Source: a bacterium (GTDB lineage Bacteria > SM23-31). From it: a DNA stretch of 64,000 bases. The position numbers and the translations under genes were made by a program. The stretch lies in assembly GCA_965249485.1 (NCBI GenBank), contig CBDFMG010000005.1:97337-161336 (forward strand). Reading direction: 5' to 3'. Below are positions 1,030 to 63,504 of the stretch, piece by piece. Numbering within the stretch: the stretch's first letter is position 1; every line of letters begins with the position of its first letter. The notes below the pieces were generated by a model that worked only from the letters and a program-made list of their open reading frames with translations, searched no databases and was not told the DNA's origin.

Positions 1030-1185
1030 TGCTAAATTCTGGTGATCAGATCATCAGAATTTAACAGTAGGGTTTGAAGAGTCATGTTTTTGACTTGGCA
1101 AATCCATACTGTTGCAAAATTTGATTTCAGAGAAGATCATAAATCTGTGTTGAAATGCGTTGATCACCAAAATTTACCAGAACCC
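1030..1185. mobile_element. MITE-like deletion derivative of the IS110-family element
   Basis: About 155 bp. Its right ~120 bp match the right end of the IS copy at 13700-13830. Its left end carries the degenerate palindromic TIR core ttctggtgatcagatcatcag. It has no ORF. Confidence 0.5.
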
Positions 1186-1261
1186 TCCAAAATAGCTTTC
1201 CACTATGAGATCAATGAATGGTGCATTTGGAATTATTGTTGCATTATACTTGAATTGCAAT

Positions 1262-1705
1262 TTACACAAATTCAGGAGTATCTATAACAATCGTTGTTTT
1301 TGGGGATGATATTTTGGCGATATACATTTCGATATTCCCAAATTTATCATACATTTCTTTAACCAAAGCAATTTTATCAATACCATGTTTTTGAAAATGA
1401 CCGTCCACAAATACCACGTATTTACCTACATATTCTGGATTTTGTAAATGGGTTTGTATAAAATCTTCAAATGCCCTTTTGTTTTTTGAATTTTTATTGT
1501 TTGCGATATCTTTTAATGAATTACTTTTCAAGAAATTTACAAAATAGTCCGCATAAGTACAAAAAAAGTTATCTTTAATATCAAACCATGATTGTATACT
1601 CTGTGGATAAAGTTCTGTTTTATTCAGATTCCATTTTTTAATTTCTGGGTTTTTTTGTTTAAACGAGCTTTCTTCTTTTAACTCATGCCAAATATTTTCA
1701 CTCAA
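1262..1705 (-). CDS. Hypothetical protein
   Basis: 147-aa ORF with no motif I recognise. The short overlapping ORF 1698-1895 may be an upstream extension. Confidence 0.35.
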   Translation of the reverse strand: MSENIWHELKEESSFKQKNPEIKKWNLNKTELYPQSIQSWFDIKDNFFCTYADYFVNFLKSNSLKDIANNKNSKNKRAFEDFIQTHLQNPEYVGKYVVFVDGHFQKHGIDKIALVKEMYDKFGNIEMYIAKISSPKTTIVIDTPEFV

Positions 1706-1854
1706 TTATATCATCACCAAATTTATTACGAAGATCTTGTATTTTAAATTTTAATGATTCTGTACCACTATTTGATGTATTAACAAGTTCTTCGACACTC
1801 TTTAAATCTAATTGAAAATTAACTACACCATCATGATCACCATCTGAATCATGA

Positions 1855-3230
1855 GTTTTTAGGAACTGGTAACTTTTAGTGATCGAGATCACCAAAATTT
1901 ATCCATGTGAATCATTTTTATACATTTCTTGCTTTTTCAAACATCAGGGCATTGCTCTCGCTAGAGAAGAATTCCAATCAAAAGATGTGCAGACATGTAT
2001 CCATACGAGACTATTCTCTCAATGCTATCTTCATCCTAGTTAGGATTATTCGCAGTTAACAGGCGAGGCTTGTCCCTCATAAATTTTAACGCGACTTGTA
2101 GCCCTAACTGTAATTTTGTACAAATTCCCTTCTCTCCTTTAGCATCCAATATATGACTCGCAGTATCTTTGATGCAGCAGCCACTGCAGCTTTGGATGTT
2201 CCTCTCTTCTTTTTTATTCTATTGTAAAACTTTGTAATGTCACTGTTCTTGGCATGTATTGCATGAGTGTGAATGCATTCTGTCAGAACCCATCTTAATG
2301 TCATGCTTCCTCTTTTTGTAATACTGCCATGATGTATGGTATCAGCTGAATTTCTGACTGATGGTACGACTCCTGCATATGCACACAGTTTGTGAGAGTC
2401 ATTGAATCTTTCAATGTCCGCAATCTCGGATGCAATGACTAGTGCAGAATAATTGCCAATTCCGGGAATCGAGTTTATCAGAATTGCATCAGGATTGGTC
2501 TTTACGGCAGCGTACACTTTTGAATTAATCTCTGCAATCTGCAAATTTAGATGGTTTATCTGTCGTAGGAATCCGTCTACTCTATAATCTCCTAATGCCC
2601 TGAGTCTTCTACAGTATATTTCAGTAAATGTAACTCCAGGAATTTTGATTCCACCCTGTAACAAAATCCCATGAATGGAATTCTTGATAGCAGTTCTCCA
2701 CTGGATGAGTTTCTTTCTGTATCTTACTAACTGGCGTTGTTGTACTATCTTTTTGTCTGGGACATAGCATTTGGCAATGTATCCACCACGTAGGAGATCT
2801 GCCAATATCCTGGCATCAATCTTGTCTGTCTTTTTCTTAGATGATGCAATTGCTTTTGTCAGATATGGGTTTGACAGTGTTACGTTTTTGTATTTCAATT
2901 GGTCTGTCAAAAATCTATATGTGTCATACCAGATTGATGAGGACTCCATGACGATGTTGGCAGAAATTGGGATATCTACAAAATGTTTCTTGATTGATTG
3001 GTGATTGTTTTCAACTTTGTCATTTTGTAATATGTTTCCGTCATTATCCATTATTGCTACTTGAAGAAACTTCTTGTGCAGGTCAATGCCCACATACATG
3101 GTCTTATTTGATTTGGTCCTAATCTGTTTCTTTGGACTTTTCTTGGATGATGCACTATAAGTTTTGGAACTATTAGATTCATCTGTAACGCTGTCTGATT
3201 TCCTTGCCTTGGTATTCACATATAGTTACC
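1855..3230 (-). mobile_element. IS110-family insertion sequence, copy 1, with its right end missing or diverged
   Basis: The left ~250 bp (1855-2100) are near-identical to 12325-12570 and include the palindrome ttttagtgatcgagatcaccaaaa. It contains the transposase CDS 2104-3219. Downstream sequence after 3220 no longer matches copy 2. Confidence 0.6.
2104..3219 (-). CDS. IS110-family (DEDD) transposase
   Basis: 371 aa. The N-terminus YVGIDLHKKFLQVAIMD is the IS110 RuvC-like start. The C-terminal HHGSITKRGSMTLRWVL segment is typical of IS110/IS1111. About 95% identical to ORF 12570-13685. Confidence 0.75.
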   Translation of the reverse strand: MNTKARKSDSVTDESNSSKTYSASSKKSPKKQIRTKSNKTMYVGIDLHKKFLQVAIMDNDGNILQNDKVENNHQSIKKHFVDIPISANIVMESSSIWYDTYRFLTDQLKYKNVTLSNPYLTKAIASSKKKTDKIDARILADLLRGGYIAKCYVPDKKIVQQRQLVRYRKKLIQWRTAIKNSIHGILLQGGIKIPGVTFTEIYCRRLRALGDYRVDGFLRQINHLNLQIAEINSKVYAAVKTNPDAILINSIPGIGNYSALVIASEIADIERFNDSHKLCAYAGVVPSVRNSADTIHHGSITKRGSMTLRWVLTECIHTHAIHAKNSDITKFYNRIKKKRGTSKAAVAAASKILRVIYWMLKERREFVQNYS

Positions 3231-3660
3231 AGTGTACTTCATTGAATGCATTGCATTGTCCTATGGAGATACACCATCTAATATTGTTGATACCCCATGT
3301 TGTGCAAAATCCAGCAAACTTTGGGGATTTCCGAATATGCTGTAGAGTATTTCATATACAGCACTGCTCAGAATCACTCCTGCTCCGAAATAGACTATGA
3401 ATCTTAACATCTAATATGATATAGGGGATCTGTATTTAAGACACAATTTTTCACGTTTGTTTGGAATTTTCTGTTTTTGCAATATCTTGAGAGAGAAAAG
3501 ATCACAAGAATACCTAGGGTGGTAGATATGTTATCTAATTCATCTTCAGAGACTACTTTGAATTTTTCTTTGACATTATTTTAGATTTAGACAGTTTCGC
3601 ACGTTTAAACATCTTCGTTGAAAGAAAACAATATTGTAGTATCTTGACTGATTGCTTGGA

Positions 3661-4377: not shown

Positions 4378-4490
4378 CTTCTAGTCACTCCAATCATTCT
4401 CCTCCTTGCTCTAGAGTGACATTATTTATATTTTCTACAGGATTCAAATCTAATTGATATCATTTAGTATTAATAAAAAAAGAAGTGAGG

Positions 4491-5066
4491 TTAAAGATTT
4501 AGTTTGTCTTCAATATTTTCCCAAGGGATGAATACTGAATTATCAGTGCTGGAATGAAATCCTGTATGGGTTCCAAAGAATGTGGTCTTTGCTAGATTGG
4601 TATATGGTCCACCACTATCACCGTCATCTGAGATATCAGTTGTCAACTCAACTACGTCAAACCCAATACCGCCCTCATAACTTGTTGCAGAATTATTATT
4701 TACAATTCCGGCTTTTGTACCGCTTGTAGATCCAGACATAAGAACTAGCGTGTTATCTGCAGCTCTATCTGTGAAAGTCGTTATGGTGGTATAGTAATTG
4801 GCTGAGTACCATACCTTTTTTTCCTGATAGGAGTCACCGCTGTTTTTATCTATAAACGCACAGTCACATCCTACTTCCCATACCAATTGTGTAGCTTTTC
4901 CTATTTCAGGATCAGATGGAGTTGGTTGATCAACATGGTTCTGGTGCATTCTGGTGATCAGATCATCATTTTGCACCATAACCCAGGATCTTAGAAGGCT
5001 AAAGTCTTGGATGTACAAGAAGCAGACAGAGCATCTCAAGCCGCATCTGATGAACAGAAAGAGCAC
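4491..5066 (-). CDS. Hypothetical protein whose true start is probably internal
   Basis: The ORF's 5' end overlaps an IS-end-like palindrome at 4944-4975 (ttctggtgatcagatcatcattttgcacc), so the annotated N-terminus is doubtful. Confidence 0.3.
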   Translation of the reverse strand: MLFLFIRCGLRCSVCFLYIQDFSLLRSWVMVQNDDLITRMHQNHVDQPTPSDPEIGKATQLVWEVGCDCAFIDKNSGDSYQEKKVWYSANYYTTITTFTDRAADNTLVLMSGSTSGTKAGIVNNNSATSYEGGIGFDVVELTTDISDDGDSGGPYTNLAKTTFFGTHTGFHSSTDNSVFIPWENIEDKLNL

Positions 5067-8722: not shown

Positions 8723-8969
8723 TTATATTAGATCTATTTCGGCACCTGATAGTAAACGGATGTGGTGCATTCTGGTCATCATTTTGCACCAGAACCTTCT
8801 CATCAACCGACAGGTAACACCGACAAAAACAACCTAAGAGGTAACAGCACCATCTATCAGGTTAAACAGGTGGAAGTGAATCAACTATTTTTATTAATTC
8901 TTTATCAGTTTTAGATTTTAAAGAGGACATAATTTATTTAATAATTTATAGTAAAAAAAGAAAAAAAGG

Positions 8970-11129: not shown

Positions 11130-11238
11130 GTTATTGTATTCAACAAATATTCAGAAGTATTAAAAGTAGGTGATGCTTTGTTTCCTAACTGTAAAAATCA
11201 TTAACATCCTTTAATTGAACAATCAATTTTTGATTATT

Positions 11239-12075
11239 CTATTGCATTGCAATCATCTTGTTGTACAGACAAACTTTCATTTTCAACTCATGAATCATGT
11301 TCTCTCTTTTGTGCGATGTTACGTGTTCACCAAACATTCTCTTGAATGCAGAAAACACTGATTCAACAATCCATCTATCTCCATAGCTTACGCTATTCCT
11401 CCATAATTCATAATTGAATAATTGAGCCAGAACAGCTTTTCGTCTAGGATAACAATCAGTTGTAATTGATGAGTTCTTTCTTGTTTTGATTCCAGGAATT
11501 ATACTTTCATGATACAAATATGAAAAACAATCCTTGGTGTCATATGCACCATCAGCTAGTGTCTTGATTATATTTCCAAACTCTTTTGATTGTTCAACTA
11601 GTGATACAAAATGTTTTGAATCATGTGACTTGTCATCTGTAACCTCCAGACCCGTAATCTGCTTTGATTTTACATCTACTGCCACATGAATCTTGAGGAA
11701 ACCACGTCTTTTCTGCCATTTCTGTCTCATCCATTCGCCTCTGTCTGCAACCTTGATTCCAGAACTGTCAATTGCAATAACAATATCTTTTCCAAGTTTT
11801 GGGTTGCACTTGATGTCAAGCTTGTTTACTCTTTTCCAGATTGCAGAATACGTTGGTGTTTTTACTTTAGATTGCAGATGAGATTTTATCAAACCTTCAG
11901 TTTGTCTGAATGGCAGATGCAAATAGAGATGACAGTATCCTAGTGCCTCCATGAATGATTCAGGATAAACAAATTGATGTCCTTCTTTTTTGTGGTTCAT
12001 CTTCTTGAGTTCTGTGTTCCATGATTCTATAGCATCAAAAGACAAGGATGTGGTGTATTTTGGTGATCTGATCAC
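11239..12075 (-). CDS. IS5-family DDE transposase, N-terminally truncated
   Basis: DDE region with ...IAIDSSG... and LADGAYDTKD (DxGYxS signature). The region SFDAIESWNTELKKMNHKKEG is shared with the fragment at 42835-43098. The ORF start runs into the palindrome ggtgatctgatcac at ~12055-12090. Confidence 0.55.
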   Translation of the reverse strand: MIRSPKYTTSLSFDAIESWNTELKKMNHKKEGHQFVYPESFMEALGYCHLYLHLPFRQTEGLIKSHLQSKVKTPTYSAIWKRVNKLDIKCNPKLGKDIVIAIDSSGIKVADRGEWMRQKWQKRRGFLKIHVAVDVKSKQITGLEVTDDKSHDSKHFVSLVEQSKEFGNIIKTLADGAYDTKDCFSYLYHESIIPGIKTRKNSSITTDCYPRRKAVLAQLFNYELWRNSVSYGDRWIVESVFSAFKRMFGEHVTSHKRENMIHELKMKVCLYNKMIAMQ

Positions 12076-12324
12076 TATTTTGCACCAGAACCTTGCATGC
12101 TTTGATCAAATTGTGTTAATTGCGCAAGAGGTCTAGTATCTGACTCGTAAAAATTAGAGTGCAGCAAACCGGCCTTTGCAAATGAATCAAATAATTCTTT
12201 ATCCTTATCTCTTTGCGCCAACTCCTTGACATATTCTCCCAATCCTTTATGACTTTTGATGGATTTGTTCTCTCTTGCTGCAGCAGTCTTGATTACACAT
12301 AACATCGCACCCCACATCATCTCA

Positions 12325-13830
12325 CTTGGGTTCTGGTAACTTTTGGTGATCCGATCACCAAAATTTATCCATGTGAATCATTTTTATACATTTCTTGCTT
12401 TTTCAAACATCAGGGCATTGCTCTCGCTAGAGAAGAATTCCAATCAAAAGATGTGCAGACATGTATCCATACGAGACTATTCTCTCAATGCTATCTTCAT
12501 CCTAGTTAGGATTATTCGCAGTTAACAGGCGAGGCTTGTCCCTCATAAATTTTAACGCGACTTGTAGCCCTAACTATAATTTTGTACAAATTCTCTCCTT
12601 TCTTTTAACATCCAATAAATCACTCGCAAAATCTTTGATGCAGCAGCCACTGCAGCTTTGGATGTTCCTCTCTTCTTTTTTATTCTATTGTAAAACTTTG
12701 TAATGTCACTGTTCTTGGCATGTATTGCATGAGTGTGAATGCATTCTGTCAGAACCCATCTTAATGTCATGCTTCCTCTTTTTGTAATACTGCCATGATG
12801 TATGGTATCAGCTGAATTTCTGACTGATGGTACGACTCCTGCATATGCACACAGTTTGTGAGAGTCATTGAATCTTTCAATGTCCGCAATCTCGGATGCA
12901 ATGACTAGTGCAGAATAATTGCCAATTCCGGGAATCGAGTTTATCAGAATTGCATCAGGATTGGTCTTTACGGCAGCGTACACTTTTGAATTAATCTCTG
13001 CAATCTGCAAATTTAGATGGTTTATCTGTCGTAGGAATCCGTCTACTCTATAATCTCCTAATGCCCTGAGTCTTCTACAGTATATTTCAGTAAATGTAAC
13101 TCCAGGAATTTTGATTCCACCCTGTAACAAAATCCCATGAATGGAATTCTTGATAGCAGTTCTCCACTGGATGAGTTTCTTTCTGTATCTTACTAACTGG
13201 CGTTGTTGTACTATCTTTTTGTCTGGGACATAGCATTTGGCAATGTATCCACCACGTAGGAGATCTGCCAATATCCTGGCATCAATCTTGTCTGTCTTTT
13301 TCTTAGATGATGCAATTGCTTTTGTCAGATATGGGTTTGACAGTGTCACATTTTTATATTTTAATTCATCTGTCAGAAATCTATATGTGTCATACCAGAC
13401 TGATGAGGATTCCATGACAATATTGGCATGAAGTGGTATGTCTGTAAAATGTTTCTTGATCGATTGGTGAGTGTTCTCAACTTTGTTGTTTTGTAATACT
13501 TTGCCTTCATTATTCATTATTGCTACTTGAAGGAATTTCTTGTGCAGGTCAATGCCCACATACATGGTCTTCTTTGATTTATTCCTAATCTGTTTCTTTG
13601 GGCTTTTCTTGGAATACGATGAACTTTGAATCTTAGAATTAGATTCATTTCTTATGCTATCTGAATTCCTTCTCTCTATATTCACATATAGTTAACAACA
13701 ATATTTGAAGAGTCATGTTTTTGACTTGGCAAATCCATACTGTTGCAAAATTTGATTTCAGAGAAGATCATAAATCTGTGTTGAAATGCGTTGATCACCA
13801 AAATTTACCAGAACCCTTTAATGATAATTT
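12325..13830 (-). mobile_element. IS110-family insertion sequence, copy 2, apparently complete at about 1.5 kb
   Basis: Left end GGTTCTGGTAACTTTTGGTGATCCGATCACCAAAA. Right end GTTGATCACCAAAATTTACCAGAACCC, an inverted match of about 23 bp. Internal transposase CDS 12570-13685. Confidence 0.65.
12570..13685 (-). CDS. IS110-family (DEDD) transposase
   Basis: 371 aa, about 95% identical to ORF 2104-3219, with the same IS110 N- and C-terminal signatures. Confidence 0.75.
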   Translation of the reverse strand: MNIERRNSDSIRNESNSKIQSSSYSKKSPKKQIRNKSKKTMYVGIDLHKKFLQVAIMNNEGKVLQNNKVENTHQSIKKHFTDIPLHANIVMESSSVWYDTYRFLTDELKYKNVTLSNPYLTKAIASSKKKTDKIDARILADLLRGGYIAKCYVPDKKIVQQRQLVRYRKKLIQWRTAIKNSIHGILLQGGIKIPGVTFTEIYCRRLRALGDYRVDGFLRQINHLNLQIAEINSKVYAAVKTNPDAILINSIPGIGNYSALVIASEIADIERFNDSHKLCAYAGVVPSVRNSADTIHHGSITKRGSMTLRWVLTECIHTHAIHAKNSDITKFYNRIKKKRGTSKAAVAAASKILRVIYWMLKERREFVQNYS

Positions 13831-40401: not shown

Positions 40402-40557
40402 ATGCCAAATTTTAGTGACATTCAGAAAGAAATTGAACACGAAGATATTCCCACCAAGTATATTATGACAGGTGAAGAAAAAAAGAAGTTGAAAAAATCA
40501 GTAGAAAAGAGCCTAAAACAAAACAAGCTAGTCTATGAAATGCTTCATGACCTTTAA
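40402..40557 (+). CDS. Putative Phd-like antitoxin
   Basis: 51-aa ORF MPNFSDIQKEIEHEDIPTKY... ending about 20 nt inside the Doc-family gene. Too short for the ORF track. Confidence 0.3.
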   Translation: MPNFSDIQKEIEHEDIPTKYIMTGEEKKKLKKSVEKSLKQNKLVYEMLHDL

Positions 40558-51820: not shown

Positions 51821-51988
51821 GGTTCTGGTAAATTCTGATGATCAGATCACCAGAAGTTAGCAGCAGGGTTTACAGCACCGCCCTTTGAGTTTGTTCTCAT
51901 ATGAAATTCTCACAAAGTTGCAAAATCTCAACTCAGAGAAGATCCTAAAACTATGTCTGGGGTGTTGATCACCAAAATCTACCAAAGC
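51821..51988. mobile_element. MITE of ~168 bp, copy A
   Basis: Near-identical to 55599-55766 and inverted at 62216-62362. Its ends are GGTTCTGGTAAATTCTGATGATCAGATCACC / GGTGTTGATCACCAAAATCTACCAAAGCC. No ORF. Confidence 0.7.
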
Positions 51989-52129
51989 CACCCTCTGTTG
52001 CAATTAAAAAACCTGCAGGTCTTCTTCCTTCAAGTTTATTGAATATTCTTTTTTCCCTATCATACTGCCAATAATGAATTGGAGCCTCGTATGGTTTATT
52101 GATGATAAGTGTTGGAATTGTAGACATCA

Positions 52130-54745
52130 TTAAATCTTAATTATTTTAAGTGATTCAATTCCACGAATGTCAATTATTTTAACAGCTACTTGTTTACTTG
52201 AACCTACTGAAAATGGCAATGATTTTGTTCCGCTATAATATTTAATTAACTCTTCATCAATTTCTGATTTCAAAGTCTTTGTCAATTTTGTCCAATTATC
52301 AATTGATCCAGAAGAATCAGGAAAGAATACTTGTTGTGGATAAAGACTTCTTTCATCATAGTCGGTGTCAAGCATCCACATTGCTATCTTAGATGTATCT
52401 CCGGATTCTATTTCACCAGTTTTTGTATTATAGTAATCAAATCCTTTAACTTCAACTATGTATTTTTCATCTTTTTGTTTTTTTAATTCTACATCTGGTT
52501 GTCCCATAAGCCAAAATGATTCATTACTTGCTCTTTTTTTCTTAAGATCTGAGGTAAGTAAATCTGCATTAACTTGAACCTTTAACACTTGAACACCAGG
52601 CCATTGCAGCTCATCAATATCTTTTGCAGCCTCTGGATCAAATTGTAATGAAGCAAAAATAATTAGTTTTGGTGTTGGAACTAACTTTTGTGCTTCTGAT
52701 ATGGCTAATGTAACTTGTTTTTGTTCTAAAAGAGAGTATTCTGTCCCAAAAGAAATTGCAGTTAGTTTTGGTTTAACTTCTTTTGTTTCACCAATCGCAT
52801 GAATCCATCGAGATGCTGGATGTGATTCTACTCTAGAAAATTCTATTTTTTGATTACCTTTTCCTCTAACACCTGTAATCAGTAGTTCATCTCTCCAATC
52901 TTGTTGGGTTTTATTTTCTGGAGTACGAGCAATTGAAGTATCAATCTCTGAACTTTCATTATATGATGCATCAAGTGATTTTACAATAGGTGAAGGAACT
53001 GCTTCTACAGTAAATGGACCAGAAATTCTAATCTTAGTTTTATCAATTAAAGGCTGATCCATAAGAATCTCTGTTTGTGGGATTTCATTATTTGCAATTG
53101 AGCTAGTTGTAATATGTGGAACCTCTTTACATTCAAAACCGCTTGTAATTCCTTCTTCTGGATGTTTTAATTTGTAATAATCAAACCTTGAAGTCATTAA
53201 TCTTTGTCTTGCCAGTGTAGTAGCAATTCTTGATGTATCACATGTTATCCATCTTCTTCCCCATTGTTCCGAAACATATGCTGCTGTTCCTGAACCACAT
53301 GTAGGATCAAATACAATATCTCCAGGATCAGTTGCTAAAAGAATACAATTTTGAATTATTTTTGGGTTAGTTTCAACAACATATCTGGCCCCTGTCACTC
53401 CTCCAAATCCTATCCATAAATTATCAATTTCAGTTACTGGATAATCAGAAAAATATCTTTTAAATCTAAGAGTGGAACCACTATCTAATATTCTATTTTT
53501 TTTAATACAATTTTCAAGACCTTCTTTAGGTGTACCCCACCATCGATTACCAGAATTAAATTTTTTTCCTTCGAACTCAATTTCAAATTTACTACCTGGT
53601 CCACCTTTCAATAAATCTGCTGAAGTAAATAATTTTGAATCTTTTGGAATCAAAGACAAATCTTTCTTTTCTTGACCGGTTAATTTTCGATAAGAACCAT
53701 CAATTAATTCAATACAGTCAAATCCAGCCCTGATAGGTTCCTTTTCTTCAAATAATGAATTAAATTTTAATTTTTTAATATCTTTTGCAAACCATAAAAT
53801 ATAATCCAATTTTGTTGAAAGTTTGTTTGTTGGTTGCAGACCTTTTGATGTTTTACTAAAAACAATCATATTCACAAAATTTTTTGAGAAAAATATTTCT
53901 TCCATTAATTCCCTGACATAATGTAAATTATCATCAGAAATTTGTACAAAACAACTTCCGCTTTCTTTTAGAAGTTTTTTGGCTAACAATAATCTACTTC
54001 GTAAATAACTCAAATAGGAATGAATTTCAAACTCCCATGTATCTCTAAATGCCTTTATCATTCCAGGCTCTTCTGTCAGATCTTCATCTTTATCCTGTCC
54101 AGCAGTAGTTTTTTTGTTCACAAAAGGTTGAAAGTTTGAACGGTATTTGACACCATAAGGAGGATCAATGTAGATCATTTGCACTTCACCTTCCATATCT
54201 CTCTCTTTTTCCAAAAGAGAATTCATAACAAGAAGAGAGTCACCTGTAATAAGTCGATTAGACCATCCTTGATCGTGTTTATAAAATTCAATTGCTTCTC
54301 TTAATGGAAGGTTATTTTCAGATTGTTCAAAGAAGGGGAATAATGTTTGTTGTTGAACACCTTGGTCTTTCAAAACTTTACTAATGATTGTCATAGGATC
54401 AATTCTTTCATGCCTATGAAGTGATACTGTATCAACTTCAAAATCAGAATTTTCAGATTTACCGTACCATTCAAGACTAGGATCAAGATGAGGATCACAT
54501 GAGTATTTTTTTGGAGGCATGTCTTTATCAGATTCTGGAGTCACTAGACCTACTGGTGGATTGTTTGCTCTTTTTTGTTTTTCGTGAATATATTGTTTAA
54601 TTGCAATTTTTTTCTTTTTAGATTCTCTAATTGGAGCAAGTTTTGATTTTTTTCTAGATTTTTTTGTAATTTTCTTTTTGGTTTTTGTTGTGGAATCTGC
54701 ATCTTTTAATCCCAAACTCGATAATAGTTTCTTTGATTTAGCCAC
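52130..54745 (-). CDS. DNA methyltransferase, beta-class (N6-adenine or N4-cytosine), Type III Mod-like, with Lys-rich N-terminus and long C-terminal extension
   Basis: Motif IV IYIDPPYG lies about 270 aa before motif I FDPTCGSGTAAY. That order defines the beta class. 871 aa. No adjacent restriction subunit is recognisable. Confidence 0.6.
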   Translation of the reverse strand: MAKSKKLLSSLGLKDADSTTKTKKKITKKSRKKSKLAPIRESKKKKIAIKQYIHEKQKRANNPPVGLVTPESDKDMPPKKYSCDPHLDPSLEWYGKSENSDFEVDTVSLHRHERIDPMTIISKVLKDQGVQQQTLFPFFEQSENNLPLREAIEFYKHDQGWSNRLITGDSLLVMNSLLEKERDMEGEVQMIYIDPPYGVKYRSNFQPFVNKKTTAGQDKDEDLTEEPGMIKAFRDTWEFEIHSYLSYLRSRLLLAKKLLKESGSCFVQISDDNLHYVRELMEEIFFSKNFVNMIVFSKTSKGLQPTNKLSTKLDYILWFAKDIKKLKFNSLFEEKEPIRAGFDCIELIDGSYRKLTGQEKKDLSLIPKDSKLFTSADLLKGGPGSKFEIEFEGKKFNSGNRWWGTPKEGLENCIKKNRILDSGSTLRFKRYFSDYPVTEIDNLWIGFGGVTGARYVVETNPKIIQNCILLATDPGDIVFDPTCGSGTAAYVSEQWGRRWITCDTSRIATTLARQRLMTSRFDYYKLKHPEEGITSGFECKEVPHITTSSIANNEIPQTEILMDQPLIDKTKIRISGPFTVEAVPSPIVKSLDASYNESSEIDTSIARTPENKTQQDWRDELLITGVRGKGNQKIEFSRVESHPASRWIHAIGETKEVKPKLTAISFGTEYSLLEQKQVTLAISEAQKLVPTPKLIIFASLQFDPEAAKDIDELQWPGVQVLKVQVNADLLTSDLKKKRASNESFWLMGQPDVELKKQKDEKYIVEVKGFDYYNTKTGEIESGDTSKIAMWMLDTDYDERSLYPQQVFFPDSSGSIDNWTKLTKTLKSEIDEELIKYYSGTKSLPFSVGSSKQVAVKIIDIRGIESLKIIKI

Positions 54746-55598: not shown

Positions 55599-55766
55599 GG
55601 TTCTGGTAAATTTTGGTGATCAGATCACCAGAAGTTAGCAGCAGGGTTTACAGCACCGCCCTTTGAGTTTGTTTTCATATGAAATTCTCACAAAGTTGCA
55701 AAATCTCAACTCAGAGAAGATCCTAAAACTATGTCTGGGGTGTTGATCACCAAAATCTACCAAAGC
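55599..55766. mobile_element. MITE of ~168 bp, copy B
   Basis: See 51821-51988. Inserted between the integrase remnant and the eno fragment. Confidence 0.7.
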
Positions 55767-55770
55767 CTTC

Positions 55771-56827: not shown

Positions 56828-57892
56828 AAGACATCAGCCACCAATTAATTACAGGCCAAAGGAGGTTCCCATAAAGCAGATCAAAATATGGAAGGATGCT
56901 CAGGCGGTTCTGGTAAATCTTCTGGCGTTTTCACATTTTTTGTTCGTAAAAAATATGCTAAAGATTCTTTTCTTCTGCATCAGTGAATATCTGCTCTGCA
57001 TAGAGTGATAATGATTGCAGTGTGTCGTGCGACAGTATGATCAGCAGATAGTTTGTGATGTGGTCTTTCAGGCGATTTTCTTTTCGCACTCCTTGTGTGA
57101 GGGCGACAACAAACGCAATTGCGTTTTTGTGGATGTTTTCTGCGTATGTCCTGATGTCTGCGTTTTCCCTCTCGCACATGTCTGCAATCTGATTCTCCAG
57201 TGACTCTATGATGTCAAGTTTTGCTTTATTAAATTTTTTGTAAATTTCATCTCTTGGCTTTTCTTCTAGATTCTCAGAAATTTCTGAGAAGAGTTTCAGT
57301 GTCTTGCTTAACAGTGCGTTCATCTCTTCTGTGAATACCTGGTCACGGATTATGCTGTGATGCATGATTATTGATTTGTTTTTTGATACTTGAATGTTTT
57401 ATGATTGGTTTTCCATGATAACAGAATATTTTGTCATTTGGATCCTTTCTTCCCTGAGTCATAGTTATTCCTAATTTTTCAAGATAATCATCATCCAACT
57501 TTAGAGCCTCTTTAATTTCATAATATCATGACTTGTCAGATTAATGTGGTTTGTGTTAATTTTAGGCTCAAGTCTAAAAAATCTGATTTTGTATTGCCTG
57601 GAGGAAACAAACTTGCAAAAATGATTCAAAATGATGGTTTTTTGGTGGTTGGAGTAAAATCAACCGATCTGATACACCGAGAAAAATCCACCAAAGATGA
57701 ACCACTATGTCCCAGTGGATATCGTGTTAGGTGACATGGAATATTTAGAGGAACTTGTAAAGGAAAAGAAAATTGTAGCCAGGAAAGTTAGTCGATGGGA
57801 CGTTTACAGAATTAAGAGAAAATAATCAAAATTTAACAAAATATTGACAGTTAAGGATCAGTTTTTATTATTTTTGTATCCCAGAACAAGAA

Positions 57893-59641
57893 TTGCTAAA
57901 AGAAGAGATTTCTAGTCCAACTGAGGAATTTATTGAGTCCATAAAGCAAAGCATAGCAGAACGGATAGATCCAAATGCCTCTACAGTAGAAATCGGAAAA
58001 GAGTTTCTAAAATGGGTTGTAACTAAATTGTTTGATGCGTCTGAAGACGATTTTGACCAACATTACACTGATGGTAAAAACGACCACGGAATAGACTTCT
58101 GGATACCAGATCCAAGTGACGAAGGCGAGGGCGGAGTGATTCAACTCTTCCAAATAAAATACGGTACATCACACAAACCAGAGTCCATTTACAAATTTAG
58201 AGATGATGTAGAAGAATTCTTCAAGATGAATCCAAACGATGTAGAAAGAGACGAACTGAAAGATGTTCTAAGAGAAAAGATGGAGAAAAAACTAGAGCCA
58301 GAGTTAATTTACGTAACCAACAACGACATAGACAACCTAGAGAAATTCAAGGGAATAACGGCAAAGGTATACGGCTTAAAACAAATTGAAGAAAAGTTAT
58401 GGGACAATTTATTCGGTAAACCAAAAGGTCAGGTTGCAAAGTTAAAGTTAGAAAAATGCATGACTTTCGATCATTCCGTAATGGGGGTGGTATCGCTTCA
58501 AGAACTAAGCAGATTTGTTAGAAATAACAAATCGTACATTTTTGAATCAAACATTAGAAAGTTTCTTGGGTCAAAGAAAACTAAGGTCAACAAACTGTTA
58601 CAAAAAACAATAAACAAAAACCCAGAAGATGTTTACAAGTACAATAACGGCATTACTCTTGTTGCTACTAAATTCAAAGACTTGGAAAACTTTGAGATAG
58701 AATTACATGAACCCCAGATAGTAAACGGAGCACAGACGGCGAACACTATCGCAACAGAACTTCAGTTTTATGATAATCGAATTGGAAGCGTACCGATAAT
58801 AATATTTCAAGAGGAAACTAAAGAGGTCAAAGACAAAATAACAAGATTTAGAAATTCTCAAAATGCAGTAAAAGGCAAGGACCTAATCTCTCTTGAAGCG
58901 ACACATAAAAACCTACACAGTCAGTTAAACAACATCGGTTATTATTACGAGTATCAAGCAGGAGGATGGCTTAGTCTACCAGACAAAGAAAAGAAGAAGT
59001 TTACAGGACATGAGACATACAACAAATACATTCTAGGAGAAAAAAAGAAACTTGACGTAAAAATAGACGCAAAAGATGCAATTCAAAGCATGGTGGCGGG
59101 AATTACACAGGAACCAACAAAACCCTACGGCAGTATTGCTAGGTATATGCCATCAGGAGCAAATTACGCCGATGTGTTCAACAGTGACCTAAAAGAAGAT
59201 TGGAGACTCTTTCTTTATCCATATCTTGTCAAGTGCTACTGCGTAAACAACTTCAAGTATGGTAAACAAGACCCAGATTTACCGGAACTGAAATACGCAA
59301 GACTGCTCTTCGTAACTGCATATTTTAGAATACTCAGCCAGTTCATTATCACGAAAGACGTTGACAAGATCAGAAAAGACCCAACAATATTGGAGCCATA
59401 CTTCAAAGATTTTGAGACAAATGAAAGACTCTTAAAATTCACCCATGAGATGATTAAACACTATGTTGCGACAGCACGACAATTCATGGAAGATCACAAA
59501 GAAAAGGTTACAACTTTGCATAACTTCTTTGCTAGATATGCATGGGATGAGTCACTTCAAAAGAATTTCATACATCACGTCATCGTCTACAAAGATGACC
59601 TAAAGAAAATTAAAGAAAGTTTCAAGAAAGAAAATAATTGA
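57893..59641 (+). CDS. AIPR-like / PD-(D/E)xK-like putative abortive-infection protein
   Basis: 582 aa. The N-terminus DGKNDHGIDFWIP...VIQLFQIKYG fits a D...(E/Q)xK nuclease-like core. The size and its position next to a methyltransferase and integrase resemble AIPR-family proteins. No search was run. Confidence 0.35.
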   Translation: MLKEEISSPTEEFIESIKQSIAERIDPNASTVEIGKEFLKWVVTKLFDASEDDFDQHYTDGKNDHGIDFWIPDPSDEGEGGVIQLFQIKYGTSHKPESIYKFRDDVEEFFKMNPNDVERDELKDVLREKMEKKLEPELIYVTNNDIDNLEKFKGITAKVYGLKQIEEKLWDNLFGKPKGQVAKLKLEKCMTFDHSVMGVVSLQELSRFVRNNKSYIFESNIRKFLGSKKTKVNKLLQKTINKNPEDVYKYNNGITLVATKFKDLENFEIELHEPQIVNGAQTANTIATELQFYDNRIGSVPIIIFQEETKEVKDKITRFRNSQNAVKGKDLISLEATHKNLHSQLNNIGYYYEYQAGGWLSLPDKEKKKFTGHETYNKYILGEKKKLDVKIDAKDAIQSMVAGITQEPTKPYGSIARYMPSGANYADVFNSDLKEDWRLFLYPYLVKCYCVNNFKYGKQDPDLPELKYARLLFVTAYFRILSQFIITKDVDKIRKDPTILEPYFKDFETNERLLKFTHEMIKHYVATARQFMEDHKEKVTTLHNFFARYAWDESLQKNFIHHVIVYKDDLKKIKESFKKENN

Positions 59642-61465: not shown

Positions 61466-61609
61466 ATGAGCAAACGTGTTACAGTCATGATTGACGATGA
61501 CCTGGACAAAAAACTTAGGCATCTTCAAGCAAAAATGATTCATCAGAAACAATCAACATATAGTTATTCCAGAGCATTGAATGAAACCCTTCGTAAAGCT
61601 TTGAAATAA
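61466..61609 (+). CDS. Ribbon-helix-helix (CopG/Arc-like) small DNA-binding protein
   Basis: MSKRVTVMIDDDLDKKLRHLQAKM...SYSRALNETLRKALK shows a beta-strand followed by two-helix RHH pattern. Too short for the ORF track. Confidence 0.4.
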   Translation: MSKRVTVMIDDDLDKKLRHLQAKMIHQKQSTYSYSRALNETLRKALK

Positions 61610-62215
61610 TTATCCAGTCTTCTGAAATTAAATTTTGGAATGGAATGAAATTAAATTTTAAATAGCAAATTAGTGCAAGGCACGGGATCAGAAGAATAAA
61701 GAATAAAAATATAAACTACGATTATATCATTACAGAAATTGACTCCTGATTATCATTTAATGGCAACTGATCTCCTAAATGCAGGAATGGGTGATGAAGG
61801 TCGATTAAGATTCATCATTGATTGTATTGCTGAAAACAAACCGCTTTACAAAACAGATATGATGTTCTTAGAAACCATGAGCAACCAACTAGAGCAAAAA
61901 ATAAAGACACTCAAAGGAGATGACAAAAAGCAAAAAGAAACACATCCAAAGACATCGGTTTCTGAAGAACAACTTGGTGGAATAATAGATAAAAACGATC
62001 CAAAAAATACAGAAAAAATTATTCCTATAAGAAAAAAGAGATCCCTTTTTGCAAGAATCTTCTTTAGATAGGCTCTTTCAAAAGATCATTAGATCGCCAA
62101 CAATAAATCGATCGTACCATTACTAGTTGCAGAGTAAAAGACCTCCCCTGATCATACTCCCTCAAGACATGATCTTCCTATTGTTTTGGTCTTTTACTTT
62201 ATAATCACACGGTGT

Positions 62216-62362
62216 ATTCTGGTAAATTTTGGTGATCAACACACCCAGACATAGTTTTAGGATCTTCTCTGAATTAGAATTTTGCAACTTTGTGAGAATT
62301 TCATATGAGAACAAAGTCAAAGGGCGGTGCTGTAAACCCTGCTGTTAAATTCTGGTGATCCG
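62216..62362. mobile_element. MITE copy C, inverted and slightly shorter, abutting an IS5-family element
   Basis: Reverse complement of the 51821-51988 family. Its left flank (62197-62212 tttataatcacacggtg) is a partial type-1 repeat. Confidence 0.6.
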
Positions 62363-63438
62363 ATCGGGGTTGTCGCCAAATTCAACCAAATGATCTAATT
62401 TTGTAATTTTTCACGCATATTGATCAGGGAGGTATGGGTTCCCCAATGACTAACCATAAGAGACGTGATCAGTACTGGAAGTACTATCACGATGCCCACA
62501 CCCGAGAACTGGATTTTCTCACATCCCATATAGTTTCTTTGATTGTGGAGAATCCGTGTCCTGCACATGCCAAAAGGTCTGGCGCGGGACGCAAACCGGT
62601 ACACGACAAAAACAAGCTTGCATTTCTCTGCATACTCATGGTGTGCCTTGACTTTACATCCAGGGACATGGAGAATCTTGCAGCTCTGCTGAGGATGCCG
62701 TGGAACGAACCCCTGCCGGATCACAGCACCATTGCCAAGTTCATGCAGAAGATTCCGACTGCATGGCTTGAGGGCATCATTGCCTGCACGGCAGAATCAT
62801 GTCTTGCAGGGTTTGATGCCTCCTCCAAACTCAAGCTTGCATCAGACAGCACCGGCGTTGCTACTGGCAGATATTACATGGTGCAAAAAAACGTCAAAAA
62901 CAGGCACAAATCAGAGGTAAAACGTCAAAAGTATATCAAATGGCACGTGACTGCAGTACTGGGCCTGCAGGTCATACTCTCCTGCCGCATTACGGCCAGC
63001 AATGTGGCAGACACCACGGTTCTTGCATCCCTGATAGAGAAGATCAAAAAGACAGGCATTGCATTTTCTGGCAGCAGATTCAACGCAGACAAGGGATATG
63101 ATTCTGATGAGAACTTTAGGCTTGTCTTTGATGTCGGCATGACTCCAAACATAAAGCAGAGGAACAACGCCATAAGCAGCTCAAAACCATTTCGTAAAAG
63201 GGCGGCAGGACTGTTTGATGCAGATATCTACAAAAAACGTGGCATGATAGAGGGGATATTTGGAGCCGAGGAGACAGAGGGTCACCGGTTGCTGTGCAGG
63301 TTCAGAAAAAAGTCCACAAGAAGGCGGTTCGGACTGTGCAAGGCAATAGGATGGAACCTTGAGGTGTTAAACCGTCTAGAGTGTGCCGCAAGGCAGAATA
63401 TAGTGGTGGTGGCAGCTTGATGTGAATTTGGCGACAAC
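62363..63438 (+). mobile_element. IS5-family insertion sequence with 18-bp perfect TIRs, inserted into a MITE/palindrome
   Basis: TIR GGGGTTGTCGCCAAATTC / GAATTTGGCGACAACCCC. Flanked on both sides by GATCCGATC, a candidate target-site duplication. Encodes transposase 62434-63420. Confidence 0.65.
62434..63420 (+). CDS. IS5-family DDE transposase
   Basis: 328 aa. ...LASDSTGV... and NADKGYDSDEN (DxGYxS signature) with a downstream E. Confidence 0.65.
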   Translation: MGSPMTNHKRRDQYWKYYHDAHTRELDFLTSHIVSLIVENPCPAHAKRSGAGRKPVHDKNKLAFLCILMVCLDFTSRDMENLAALLRMPWNEPLPDHSTIAKFMQKIPTAWLEGIIACTAESCLAGFDASSKLKLASDSTGVATGRYYMVQKNVKNRHKSEVKRQKYIKWHVTAVLGLQVILSCRITASNVADTTVLASLIEKIKKTGIAFSGSRFNADKGYDSDENFRLVFDVGMTPNIKQRNNAISSSKPFRKRAAGLFDADIYKKRGMIEGIFGAEETEGHRLLCRFRKKSTRRRFGLCKAIGWNLEVLNRLECAARQNIVVVAA

Positions 63439-63504
63439 CCCGATCCGATCATCAGAATTTAACAGAACCCAGCATCAGTTGTAGAGAGCCTGCACCGCAA
63501 TAAA

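What the first reader, a model, noticed from the sequence alone, without database searches (positions are those of the whole stretch)
1030..63469. Shared palindromic core (TTTTGGTGATC-N-GATCACCAAAA, with GGTTCTGGTAAA outer arm) at the ends of IS110-like elements, an IS5-like element and a 168-bp MITE family: common TIR or preferred palindromic target
At least 14 sites carry the motif. They are the ends of both IS110-family copies (1868-1895, 12335-12362, 13795-13825), both ends of three MITE copies (51821-51988, 55599-55766, 62216-62362), the 155-bp MITE at 1030-1185, the truncated IS5 at ~12055-12090, and relics at 4944-4975, 8765-8795 and 56905-56920. The IS5-family element at 62363-63438 has its own distinct 18-bp TIRs but is inserted precisely inside this palindrome, flanked by GATCCGATC on both sides. 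Transposases of two unrelated families (DEDD and DDE) are thus associated with the same sequence. IS1111-group (IS110 family) elements are known to target REP-like palindromes. The pattern here suggests that a host palindromic repeat or MITE serves as a landing pad for several IS types, or that the MITE is a non-autonomous derivative of the IS110-like element.
Basis: partly seen in the sequence, partly recalled or inferred. Interest (0 to 1): 0.55.

Follow-up and report, generated by a model that had tools for sequence, protein, structure and literature searches.

The report
Palindromic repeat as IS landing pad
A 49-bp palindrome, found alone or as the hairpin end of a 163-bp repeat in a Nitrosopumilus (ammonia-oxidising archaeon) genome, is a shared insertion target rather than a transposon end: an IS1111-type element lands in its arm, apparently steered by its own guide RNA, and an unrelated IS5-type element lands in its centre.

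Summary
The motif is real. TTTTGGTGATC (up to 1 mismatch) occurs 16 times against 2.7 expected. It belongs to a ~24-nt unit (GGGTTCTGGTAAATTYTGGTGATC) that forms 49-bp palindromes, either solo or as the left hairpin of a 163-170-bp MITE-like repeat.

It is not an IS110 terminal repeat, and the MITE is not an IS110 derivative. Both IS110-family copies are 1327 bp (1902-3228 and 12368-13694). Forty-two related copies in Nitrosopumilus MAGs end at exactly the same bases. Both window copies sit at the same position of a palindrome arm (…CTGK^TAAATTTTGGTGATC), one in a MITE hairpin and one in a solo palindrome.

The element has IS1111-group hallmarks:
- an 8-bp subterminal repeat with 7-nt and 3-nt terminal extensions;
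- a longer non-coding region downstream of the transposase gene;
- a conserved, structured 3' RNA whose only variable loop segments are complementary to the two strands of the target.

These guide segments covary with the flanks over 11 guide variants (0 of 20000 permutations reach the observed match).

Separately, the IS5-family element at 62366-63441 makes a 9-bp duplication, GATCNGATC. In 8 of 11 copies it sits at the palindrome centre.

Verdict: the landing-pad reading is right. This is a new archaeal member of a known kind and moderately interesting.

The parts
1024..1186 (+). Intact MITE-like repeat M1 (163 bp). The left hairpin is 1024-1072 (unit, one spacer base, inverted unit). The right terminal unit is 1163-1186.
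   Evidence: Sequence; unit hits; alignment with the other MITEs.
1862..1901 (+). Left 40 nt of a solo palindrome interrupted by IS copy A. The remaining 9 nt (CCAGTGTAC) are at 3229-3237.
   Evidence: The joined flanks give GGAACTGGTAACTTTTAGTGATC-GA-GATCACCAAAATTTA^CCAGTGTAC, a 49-nt palindrome.
1902..3228 (-). IS1111-group (IS110 family) element, copy A, 1327 bp. The transposase ORF is 2104-3219, with a probable start at M41 (3099).
   Evidence: Pfam DEDD_Tnp_IS110 and Transposase_20. Boundaries agree with 42 related copies. 74 mismatches to copy B.
1991..2115 (-). Predicted seekRNA/bridge-RNA of copy A. The T guide is 2080-2087 and the B guide is 2056-2063.
   Evidence: Covariance model R1 scores 144.2 bits, E 2e-30.
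4937..4985 (+). Uninterrupted solo palindrome, GCA variant (GGTTCTGGTGCATTCTGGTGATC A GATCATCATTTTGCACCATAACC).
8758..8796 (+). Degenerate palindrome that has lost its centre.
11174..12045 (-). 5'-truncated IS5-family element 'IS5a' (ORF 11239-12075). Its own terminal repeats are TGCTGTGTTTCCYAAC and are unrelated to the motif.
   Evidence: Pfam and NCBIfam. Comparison with intact copies in L081, L004 and L070.
12046..12092 (+). Uninterrupted solo palindrome abutting the truncation point of IS5a. The same palindrome carries IS5b at its centre in locus L084.
12328..12367 (+). Left 40 nt of the hairpin of MITE-B, up to the insertion point of IS copy B.
12368..13694 (-). IS1111-group element, copy B, 1327 bp. 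The transposase ORF is 12570-13685, with a probable start at M41 (13565). The subterminal repeat ATGTGAAT lies 7 nt from the 5' end and 3 nt from the 3' end.
12457..12581 (-). Predicted seekRNA/bridge-RNA of copy B. The T guide AAAAUUUA is at 12546-12553. The B guide CCUGUUAA is at 12522-12529. Donor matches are UAUAGUUA at 12571-12578 and AUGGAUA at 12464-12470.
13695..13817 (+). Remainder of MITE-B (inner-arm tail, body and right terminal unit). It is 100% identical to M1 positions 52-165 of the BLAST query 1022-1187.
51821..51989 (+). Intact MITE-like repeat of the second subfamily.
55599..55767 (+). Intact MITE-like repeat of the second subfamily.
56906..56918 (+). Isolated outer-arm 13-mer GGTTCTGGTAAAT, either a relic or a chance or coding match.
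62215..62365 (-). MITE-like repeat in reverse orientation, up to the centre of its hairpin. The last 9 nt (62357-62365, GATCCGATC) are the left copy of the target duplication.
62366..63441 (+). IS5-family element 'IS5b', 1076 bp, with 18-bp terminal repeats GGGGTTGTCGCCAAATTC. The transposase ORF is 62434-63420.
   Evidence: Pfam DDE_Tnp_1. Ten further copies with flanks.
63442..63470 (-). Right copy of the 9-bp duplication (63442-63450) and the outer arm of the interrupted hairpin.

Best explanation
The shared sequence is a genomic repeat: a 49-bp palindrome that occurs solo or as the hairpin end of a 163-170-bp MITE-like element. Two unrelated insertion sequences use it as a preferred target, by two different mechanisms.

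(1) The IS110-family element is an IS1111-group, RNA-guided element. Its 202-nt non-coding region downstream of the transposase gene encodes a structured RNA. The internal loop of that RNA carries a 5' segment (AAAAUUUA) complementary to the top strand just right of the insertion point (TAAATTTT). It also carries a 3' segment (CCUGUUAA) complementary to the bottom strand left of it (CTGT plus the shared TAA). The DEDD transposase with this RNA recombines the circular IS junction (…CACATGGA-TAA-CTATATG…) with the palindrome arm at the shared TAA. The result is an oriented insertion with no duplication at …CTG(T/G)^TAAATTTTGGTGATC.

(2) The IS5-family element IS5b is a DDE cut-and-paste element with a 9-bp staggered cut. 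It prefers the symmetric centre GATCNGATC of the same palindrome.

What is shown: the boundaries, the insertion positions, the guide-target complementarity and its covariation, the conservation of the RNA structure, and the recurrence of the duplication. What is inferred: that the RNA is expressed and bound, that a circular intermediate forms, and why IS5b prefers symmetry. How the palindrome or MITE itself spreads is unresolved.
For: Boundaries. BLAST of the 1327-bp IS against 78 loci ends at query positions 1 (or 6) and 1327 in 42 copies of 74-100% identity. Flanks differ between lineages.

Same insertion point. Both window copies and the six close relatives (L001 is the same locus as window copy B) have CACATGGA|TAAATTTTGGTGATC… or a near variant. 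At least 5 distinct distal-arm and spacer variants show these are independent sites. An empty equivalent exists at 1024-1072 and at L001:350.

IS1111-group hallmarks. The 8-bp subterminal repeat has 7-nt and 3-nt terminal extensions, as described for the group (PMC11187229). The downstream non-coding region is the longer one. NCBIfam 'IS110 family RNA-guided transposase' scores 232.5 bits against a cut-off of 140. There is homology to the ISCro4 and IS621 transposases, with the DEDD residues and the C-terminal Ser aligned.

Guides. The alignment of 3' non-coding regions shows a conserved scaffold, GCGTT-[8-10 nt]-TGAGGGACAAGCCTCG-[5 nt]-TAACTGCG, in which only the bracketed segments vary, and they track the flanks. 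Over 40 unique guide/target pairs and 11 distinct T guides, the cognate exact match averages 7.5 nt against 4.2 nt for non-cognate pairs. For the B guide the figures are 5.0 and 3.4. None of 20000 group-level permutations reaches the observed value.

Donor match. AUGGAUA in the RNA becomes AUAGAUA in step with the IS end changing from CACATGGA to CACATAGA, in several lineages.

Structure. The guides lie in an internal loop between two helices. On 25 distinct sequences, 96.4% of cells are paired against about 40% for slid controls, and 12 pairs show changes on both sides. The covariance model hits the window only at the two IS 3' regions.

IS5b. In 8 of 11 copies the element abuts the GATCNGATC centre. 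Six of these have a 9-bp duplication (four exact, two differing only at the central N), and one further copy has a 9-bp duplication at a non-palindromic site. L080 and L087 carry both IS types in one palindrome.
Against: No expression or binding data exist. Rfam has no matching family. The single-sequence fold energy is not better than shuffles (z = -0.44).

The B-guide matches are short (3-8 nt). Copy A sits at CTGG rather than CTGT, so the left half of the target is tolerant or contributes little.

Some relatives do not match their flanks well (L071, L049, L029, L002). The 5' donor match UAUAGUUA overlaps the stop codon and varies at a synonymous site (UACAGUUA in copy A), so it may not be a guide.

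The loci were retrieved because they contain the IS, so the proportion of occupied palindromes cannot be estimated. The structure counts were made on an alignment fitted to the model. Only three distinct IS5b target 9-mers were seen.
Confidence: 0.85

Rival explanations
1. The palindromic core is the terminal (or subterminal) inverted repeat of the IS110-like element itself, shared with its deletion derivative, the MITE.
For: The motif abuts one end of both copies. The 114 bp beyond the other end of copy B are identical to MITE M1.
Against: Forty-two copies in at least five genomes end at the same bases and most have unrelated flanks. Copy A has no MITE body on its far side. Removing copy B restores a complete 163-bp MITE that is 152/163 identical to M1. 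The element has its own subterminal repeat, ATGTGAAT.
Confidence: 0.02
2. The DEDD transposase recognises the palindrome by protein-DNA contacts or hairpin structure alone, and the complementarity in the 3' non-coding region is incidental.
For: The target is a strong palindrome. The B-guide matches are short, and some copies mismatch their flanks.
Against: Sister lineages with transposases 72-90% identical to this one insert at non-palindromic sites (TCTAA^TAATTACA, GTTGA^TACATACC, TTTGC^TGATTCAT). Their loop segments change in step. The family is experimentally RNA-guided (PMC11187229, PMC11208160).
Confidence: 0.05
3. The IS carries its 40-nt right-flank palindrome along when it moves (flank co-mobilisation, or spread by recombination between copies), so the association reflects hitch-hiking rather than target choice.
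For: Right flanks of window-type copies are near-identical over 40 nt and mostly share the distal-arm variant AAAAGTTACC. L021 shares the right flank of copy B but has a different left flank.
Against: The flanks differ in spacer (G, C or TC), in a C/T position and in the outer arm, which gives at least 5 distinct palindromes. Left flanks usually contain the rest of the arm (CCCTGCTGT, GGGGTCTGT, ACACTGG). Uninterrupted palindromes with the same asymmetric arms exist (L001:350). L005 lies in a hairpin in the opposite arm order, as its different B guide (UCUGG) predicts.
Confidence: 0.06
4. The palindrome or MITE is a non-autonomous element mobilised by an IS5-family transposase related to IS5b. 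The IS5b copies at palindrome centres would then reflect affinity of that transposase for its own kind of ends, abutted like a circle junction.
For: The MITE terminus GGGTTCTGGTAAATTTTG and the IS5b terminal repeat GGGTTGTCGCCAAATTCA agree at 12 of 18 positions (reading; a post-hoc comparison). Back-to-back inverted units resemble abutted IS ends.
Against: The MITE copies have no 9-bp or any other consistent target duplication. No longer element with these termini was found in about 430 kb of related loci. The comparison was made after the fact.
Confidence: 0.12

Closest known systems
REP-targeting IS110/IS1111 elements (ISPa11, ISPpu9, ISPpu10, IS621) and their seekRNA/bridge RNA
   Same: DEDD transposase with a PF02371 domain. 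Oriented, duplication-free insertion at one position of a repeated palindrome. Guide segments in a non-coding end that pair with both strands of the target and overlap at a short shared core (PMC11187229, PMC11208160, PMC1525189).
   Different: The host is an archaeon (Nitrosopumilus). The target is a 49-bp AT-rich palindrome or MITE hairpin, not a bacterial REP. The subterminal repeat is only 8 bp. Rfam 15 has no model that detects the RNA. Nothing here has been tested experimentally.
ISEc11, ISKpn4 and ISPa11 seekRNAs (IS1111 group)
   Same: The non-coding region lies downstream of tnp. The top-strand match lies 5' of the bottom-strand match and the two overlap in the target. Terminal extensions are 7 nt and 3 nt. 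Natural re-programming is seen between close relatives (PMC11187229).
   Different: The sequence is unrelated. The donor-end matches here flank the target loop in a multi-branch arrangement, which Durrant et al. noted as common in IS1111 orthologues. The C-terminal motif is S-A rather than S-G or T-G.
IS4321 / IS5075 (IS1111 group), which target the terminal repeats of Tn21-family transposons
   Same: An IS1111-type element lands inside the terminal repeat of another mobile element, here the terminal unit or hairpin of a MITE. In related loci, a sibling IS lands in the end of another IS.
   Different: The target element is a small non-coding repeat, not a Tn3-family transposon.
IS903 (IS5 family)
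   Same: DDE transposase, 9-bp target duplication and a preference for symmetric (palindromic) target contexts. Its reported target motif is WTTYA-N9-TRAAW (PMC2577343, Table 1).
   Different: IS5b scores below NCBIfam's IS5 cut-offs (86.6 against 140 bits). Its preferred site is GATCNGATC, flanked by CTGGT and ACCAG. Subgroup membership was not tested by phylogeny.
REP/BIME elements and hairpin MITEs (for example Correia or RUP elements)
   Same: Short, repeated, mostly intergenic palindromic DNA that acts as a hot spot for several IS families (PMC1525189).
   Different: No RAYT or other partner enzyme was identified. The arms are longer (24 nt) and near-perfect. There is no target duplication. 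The repeat is rare outside this lineage: one locus in the JGI metagenomes and none in viral contigs.

Membership tests
IS110 family, IS1111 group (RNA-guided DEDD transposase) | [quoted passage not shown] | tested here: met
   Pfam E-values are 8.5e-26 and 4.2e-21. NCBIfam NF033542 scores 232.5 bits against a cut-off of 140. The alignment to ISCro4 (9t56) shows GIDLHK, MESSS, KTDKIDA and the Ser of P-x4-S-A aligned.
IS110 family, IS1111 group (RNA-guided DEDD transposase) | Subterminal inverted repeats with asymmetric terminal extensions (7 nt left, 3 nt right) | tested here: met
   The ends read TAACTAT-ATGTGAAT … ATTCACAT-GGA. The repeat is 8 bp perfect. That is shorter than the usual 11-13 bp but within the 7-17 bp range quoted in PMC11208160.
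IS110 family, IS1111 group (RNA-guided DEDD transposase) | Longer non-coding region downstream of tnp | tested here: met
   202 nt downstream against about 129 nt upstream, taking M41 as the start. With the annotated GVG start the upstream region is only 9 nt.
IS110 family, IS1111 group (RNA-guided DEDD transposase) | Site- and orientation-specific insertion without target duplication, around a short core shared by the IS junction and the target | tested here: met
   Eight window-type copies (seven distinct sites, since L001 is the same locus as window copy B) all lie in the same orientation relative to TAAATTTTGGTGATC. A shared TAA is present at both junctions and there is no duplication.
IS110 family, IS1111 group (RNA-guided DEDD transposase) | RNA from the non-coding region with segments complementary to both target strands, the top-strand match 5' of the bottom-strand match and the two overlapping | tested here: met
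   Complementarity, covariation and conserved structure were shown in silico. The order matches the convention only if 'top strand' means the tnp-sense strand.
IS110 family, IS1111 group (RNA-guided DEDD transposase) | The RNA is expressed, binds the transposase and is required; a circular intermediate forms | not testable with these tools
   This needs RNA-seq or Northern analysis, junction PCR and a transposition assay.
IS110 family, IS1111 group (RNA-guided DEDD transposase) | The transposase falls in the IS1111 clade in a phylogeny | not tested
   No ISfinder reference set was available. Only IS621 and ISCro4 were compared.
MITE (non-autonomous DDE-transposon derivative) | Small, non-coding, multi-copy, with terminal inverted repeats | tested here: met
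   Five copies of 163-170 bp in the window have about 24-nt inverted terminal units.
MITE (non-autonomous DDE-transposon derivative) | Flanking target-site duplication | tested here: not met
   No consistent duplication flanks the five copies.
MITE (non-autonomous DDE-transposon derivative) | An autonomous partner with the same termini | tested here: inconclusive
   None was found in the window or in about 430 kb of loci. IS5a and the IS110-type element are excluded as partners. The IS5b terminal repeat is only 12/18 similar.
REP/BIME-type repeat | Short extragenic palindromes in many copies, associated with a RAYT (Y1) transposase | tested here: inconclusive
   The palindromes are mostly intergenic. 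No Y1/RAYT gene was seen among the ORFs scanned. The genome-wide copy number is unknown.
IS5 family, IS903-like group (element 62366-63441) | DDE_Tnp_1 transposase, terminal inverted repeats and a 9-bp target duplication | tested here: met
   PF01609 E-value is 2.4e-10. The 18-bp terminal repeats and a 9-bp duplication occur in 7 of 11 copies.
IS5 family, IS903-like group (element 62366-63441) | Reaches a curated IS5-family model cut-off, or falls in the IS903 subgroup in a phylogeny | tested here: not met
   The best NCBIfam hit, transpos_IS5_2, scores 86.6 bits against a cut-off of 140. Subgroup phylogeny was not done.

The most novel reading that the evidence does not exclude
In IS-laden Nitrosopumilus genomes, a lineage-specific palindrome/MITE family may act as a dedicated safe harbour that co-evolves with a radiating family of archaeal RNA-guided IS1111-type elements. 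Sister elements in one genome split the same palindrome between them by one guide change: CCUGU for the inner arm and UCUGG for the outer arm. Others re-programme their guides copy by copy. One subfamily is even programmed to land in the terminus of its sibling IS. This would be a natural system showing guide-RNA re-programming, and IS-on-IS parasitism, in Archaea.
Probability: 0.3. Interest if true: 0.55.

Novelty: new member of a known kind. Interest (0 to 1): 0.38.

Why it matters
It settles the annotation. The palindrome is target DNA, the IS is 1327 bp with defined ends, and the 'MITE with IS110 end' is a nested insertion.

It extends seekRNA/bridge-RNA-type targeting to ammonia-oxidising archaea, with clear in-silico covariation. 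It also provides a compact natural series of re-programmed guides (11 or more T-guide variants with cognate sites) and a new covariance model that Rfam lacks.

It shows that, as with bacterial REPs, a small palindromic repeat concentrates insertions of unrelated IS families. That helps explain nested IS pile-ups and rearrangements in these IS-rich symbiont-type genomes. The transposase-RNA pair, with an AT-rich target and a compact protein of about 331 aa, is a candidate orthologue for recombinase engineering.

Tried and rejected
- Rfam 15 at gathering thresholds found only a tRNA and no bridge-RNA family.
- The single-sequence fold of the 3' non-coding region is not distinguishable from shuffles (z = -0.44). 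Only the comparative analysis was informative.
- I tested whether the motif is the terminal repeat of the neighbouring IS5a. Intact copies have different ends (TGCTGTGTTTCCYAAC) and the window copy is 5'-truncated at the palindrome, so I rejected this.
- I tested whether the 81-aa ORF (12076-12320) plus ORF 11239-12075 is one transposase split by the palindrome. Intact IS5a copies start MNRNWKKYN… and do not contain the 81-aa sequence, so I rejected this.
- I looked for target duplications around the five MITEs. None is consistent.
- I looked for a longer element bounded by the MITE units in all loci and found none. In L002, two palindromes flank a 233-aa membrane-protein gene, with no transposase.
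- The palindrome pattern scan of JGI metagenomes found one locus in two samples. The scan of viral contigs found none. The repeat is therefore lineage-restricted, and its origin stays open.
- A first regular expression for extracting guides missed most sequences. I replaced it with column extraction from the model alignment.

Full report

Yes. TTTTGGTGATC with up to one mismatch occurs 16 times in the window against 2.7 expected, and no shuffle out of 100 reaches 16. The outer-arm 12-mer GGTTCTGGTAAA occurs 8 times against 0.3 expected.

Reading the sites shows one ~24-nt unit, GGGTTCTGGTAAATTYTGGTGATC, with GCA and other variants. Two inverted units separated by 1-2 nt form a 49-bp palindrome.

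The palindrome occurs in two settings:
- Solo, at 4937-4985 and 12046-12092. A degenerate copy lies at 8758-8796, and one is interrupted at 1862-1901 plus 3229-3237.
- As the left hairpin of a 163-170-bp MITE-like repeat that ends in a third, inverted unit. These are at 1024-1186, 51821-51989 and 55599-55767. One is interrupted at 12328-12367 plus 13695-13817, and another at 62215-62365 plus 63442-63470.

**2. The IS110-family element and its true ends**

ORFs 2104-3219(-) and 12570-13685(-) carry DEDD_Tnp_IS110 and Transposase_20. They pass NCBIfam's 'IS110 family RNA-guided transposase' cut-off, at 232.5 bits against 140. They align to the solved ISCro4 and IS621 transposases with the DEDD residues and the C-terminal Ser in place. 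That alignment suggests the real start is M41, giving a protein of about 331 aa.

A scan of one genome per species returned 77 loci. All are from Nitrosopumilus, Cenarchaeum or Nitrosopumilaceae MAGs. The closest copies (97-99% identity) are in MAG CBDFGF01. Identical proteins occur on contigs of ENA assembly ERZ26167216.

BLAST of the candidate 1327-bp element (12368-13694) against these loci stops at query positions 1 (or 6) and 1327 in 42 copies of 74-100% identity. The flanks of most lineages have nothing to do with the palindrome. The palindrome is therefore outside the element.

The element's own ends are TAACTAT-ATGTGAAT…ATTCACAT-GGA. That is an 8-bp subterminal inverted repeat with terminal extensions of 7 and 3 nt, the asymmetric pattern described for the IS1111 group (PMC11187229). 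The longer non-coding region, 202 nt, lies downstream of the gene, again as in IS1111.

**3. Where the element sits**

In the orientation of the transposase gene, both window copies and the close relatives read …CTG(T/G) | IS | TAAATTTTGGTGATC-N-GATCAC….

Copy B interrupts the inner arm of a MITE hairpin. Joining its flanks restores a 163-bp MITE that is 152/163 identical to the intact MITE at 1024-1186. This explains the 114-bp identity that suggested a 'MITE derived from the IS'.

Copy A interrupts a solo palindrome. Its joined flanks read GGAACTGGTAACTTTTAGTGATC-GA-GATCACCAAAATTTA^CCAGTGTAC.

The occupied palindromes differ in spacer, in a C/T position and in the outer arm. They are therefore independent sites, not one flank carried around. 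The TAA at the junction is shared by the IS left end and the right flank. This fits a short recombination core and the absence of a target duplication.

**4. Why it goes there**

Aligning the 3' non-coding regions of the lineages shows a strongly conserved scaffold: AAGTCGCGTT-[8-10 nt]-TGAGGGACAAGCCTCG-[5 nt]-TAACTGCG. Essentially only the bracketed segments vary.

In the window element the first segment, AAAAUUUA, is the reverse complement of TAAATTTT, the first 8 nt of the right flank. The second, CCUGU followed by UAA, has the same sense as the left flank plus the core (CTGT-TAA). So one segment pairs with the top strand and the other with the bottom strand. They overlap at the core, and the top-strand match is 5' of the bottom-strand match. 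That is the arrangement reported for IS1111-type seekRNAs (PMC11187229).

The segments covary with the flanks:

| Lineage | T guide / B guide | Flanks |
|---|---|---|
| Second lineage in CBDFGF01 | AAAAUUUA or AGAAUUGU / UCUGG | ggttctgg\|taaattt or taattct |
| OZ242186 | GUAAUUAU / UCUAA | tctaa\|taattaca |
| OZ252243 | several T guides, each matching its own flank (10/10 in L011 and L037) | — |
| OZ250170 | AUGAAUCA / CUUGC | tttgc\|t(t)gattcat |

Over 40 unique guide/target pairs and 11 distinct T guides, the longest exact cognate match averages 7.5 nt against 4.2 nt for non-cognate pairs. For the B guide the figures are 5.0 and 3.4. None of 20000 group-level permutations reaches the observed sum.

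More distant relatives (52-68% protein identity) show the same pattern immediately after their CACATRGA(T) ends, for example 9/10 in L040, L042 and L052.

A further segment, AUGGAUA, matches the IS right end plus core. It changes to AUAGAUA wherever the end is CACATAGA, including within one subfamily (L055 against L075). A 5' segment, UAUAGUUA, matches the IS left end. It overlaps the stop codon and varies at a synonymous site, so I treat it as tentative.

**5. RNA structure**

RNAalifold places the two target segments on opposite sides of an internal loop between two helices, below a conserved apical hairpin. A second hairpin follows.

A covariance model built from this alignment hits the window at exactly two places, 1991-2115(-) and 12457-12581(-). 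It also hits the equivalent position of every relative searched, down to 52% protein identity.

On 25 distinct sequences, 96.4% of cells form standard pairs, against 31-47% when partners are slid. Twelve of 29 pairs show changes on both sides. The caveat is that this alignment was fitted to the model.

Rfam 15 has no family that detects the RNA. The single-sequence fold is not significant.

**6. The IS5-type element**

The element at 62366-63441 has a DDE_Tnp_1 transposase and 18-bp terminal repeats, GGGGTTGTCGCCAAATTC. It is flanked by GATCCGATC on both sides. Since the uninterrupted hairpin centre reads GATC-N-GATC, this is a 9-bp target duplication.

Ten further copies encoding the identical protein were fetched. 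Counting the window copy, there are 11:
- Eight abut the same palindrome centre.
- Six of those have a 9-bp GATCNGATC duplication on both sides (window, L080, L084, L085, L086, L087). Four are exact, and L080 and L085 differ only at the central N.
- L079 and L088 keep the palindrome on only one side.
- L081 has the duplication TATTTCATG at an unrelated site.
- L082 and L083 sit between inverted CATGGAATC 9-mers of another repeat.

L080 and L087 carry both IS types in one palindrome. L084 shows IS5b in the very palindrome that is empty at 12046-12092 in the window.

A 9-bp duplication and a symmetric target context are known for IS903 of the IS5 family (PMC2577343). Membership of that subgroup was not established, because the NCBIfam IS5 models score below their cut-offs.

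**7. The other 'IS5' site**

The ORF at 11239-12075 is an IS5-family transposase (NCBIfam 228 bits against a cut-off of 140). Intact copies in L081, L004 and L070 have terminal repeats TGCTGTGTTTCCYAAC and begin MNRNWKKYN…. The window copy is truncated at 12045, where the palindrome begins. The motif is therefore not its end.

**8. What the palindrome or MITE itself is**

This remains open. It has inverted terminal units but no target duplication. No partner element with the same ends was found. The palindrome copies whose ORF context was checked (L090, 4937-4985 and 8758-8796) lie outside convincing genes, and the two intact MITEs at 51821-51989 and 55599-55767 fall between the listed ORFs of 100 aa or more.

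It is lineage-restricted. A pattern scan found one locus in the JGI metagenomes and none in viral contigs. The resemblance of its terminus to the IS5b terminal repeat (12/18) is a post-hoc lead only.

**9. Comparison with what is known, and verdict**

REP-type palindromes as hot spots for several IS families, and specifically for IS110/IS1111 elements, are well documented in bacteria (PMC1525189). The RNA-guided basis is also established (PMC11187229, PMC11208160).

This case meets every sequence-level criterion of the IS1111 group that could be tested. It lacks only experimental confirmation and phylogenetic placement. It is therefore a new archaeal member of a known kind, and a clear one because related genomes supply a natural series of re-programmed guides.

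Its landing-pad reading is right, and its TIR and derivative alternatives are wrong.

Noticed in passing
L055, L075, L077, L078; tandem pairs in L015-L017, L020, L073, L057, L058: A diverged sibling IS (about 60% protein identity, left end TAACCATATGTGCC) has the guides B = AAACUAUAAC and T = reverse complement of ATGTGAAAA. Together these spell TAACTAT|ATGTGAA, the left terminus of the window-type IS family. Its right flank is a sibling IS lacking its first 5-6 nt, and in L055 and L077 its left flank ends in TAACTA. This looks like an RNA-guided IS programmed to land in the end of another IS.
   Followed up: partly
L011, L013, L014, L036, L037, L054, L071 (MAG OZ252243): Copies within one genome carry different T guides, each matching its own right flank (10/10 nt in L011 and L037). 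This looks like natural copy-by-copy re-programming.
   Followed up: partly
window 29616-30629 (+): A single ORF combines an N-terminal TATA-binding-protein half with a C-terminal TnpB part (NCBIfam guided_TnpB at 136.6 bits; Pfam Cas12f1-like_TNB). It is either a TBP gene disrupted by a TnpB element or a fusion.
   Followed up: no
window ~14900-47000: This block has higher GC (about 45% against 32-38% in the flanks). It encodes HerA/VirB4/TraG-like ATPases and a T2SSF protein, and holds a tRNA at 35370-35456(-). It looks like an integrated conjugative-type island.
   Followed up: no
window 13830-14537(-), 40535-41176, 49555-50232, 52130-54745(-), 57893-59641: Defence-type genes are interspersed with the repeats. 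In the order of the coordinates listed, they are a TIR-domain protein, Fic, PIN, an N6/N4 DNA methylase and AIPR.
   Followed up: no
window 1024-1186 vs 12328-12367 + 13695-13817: The two MITE copies are identical over their last 114 bp, yet all 11 of their differences fall in the first 49 nt (the hairpin). The divergence is mosaic, which suggests conversion or rapid turnover of the hairpin.
   Followed up: no
window 1902-3228 vs 12368-13694: The two IS copies differ at 74 of 1327 positions, and the differences fall in clusters. This suggests recombination between sublineages.
   Followed up: no
L082, L083 (one contig of ERZ26167216): Two inverted IS5b copies are each flanked by CATGGAATC on one side and its reverse complement on the other. 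This fits two insertions into the same 9-mer followed by inversion between the copies. All three IS5b target 9-mers fit NATNNNATN.
   Followed up: partly
L002 2820-4113: Two window-type IS copies in inverted orientation bracket two inverted MITE variants and a 233-aa membrane-protein gene. The arrangement resembles a composite transposon.
   Followed up: no
L021 vs window 12300-13700: In MAG CBDFGF01 an IS copy has the same right flank as window copy B (palindrome plus the 81-aa ORF) but a different left flank. This implies rearrangement between IS copies, or a strain difference.
   Followed up: no
L090 6708-6756 / L091: The only palindrome copy in the JGI metagenomes lies just downstream of a 651-aa VirB4-like ATPase gene. 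So it, too, sits in a conjugative-type context.
   Followed up: no
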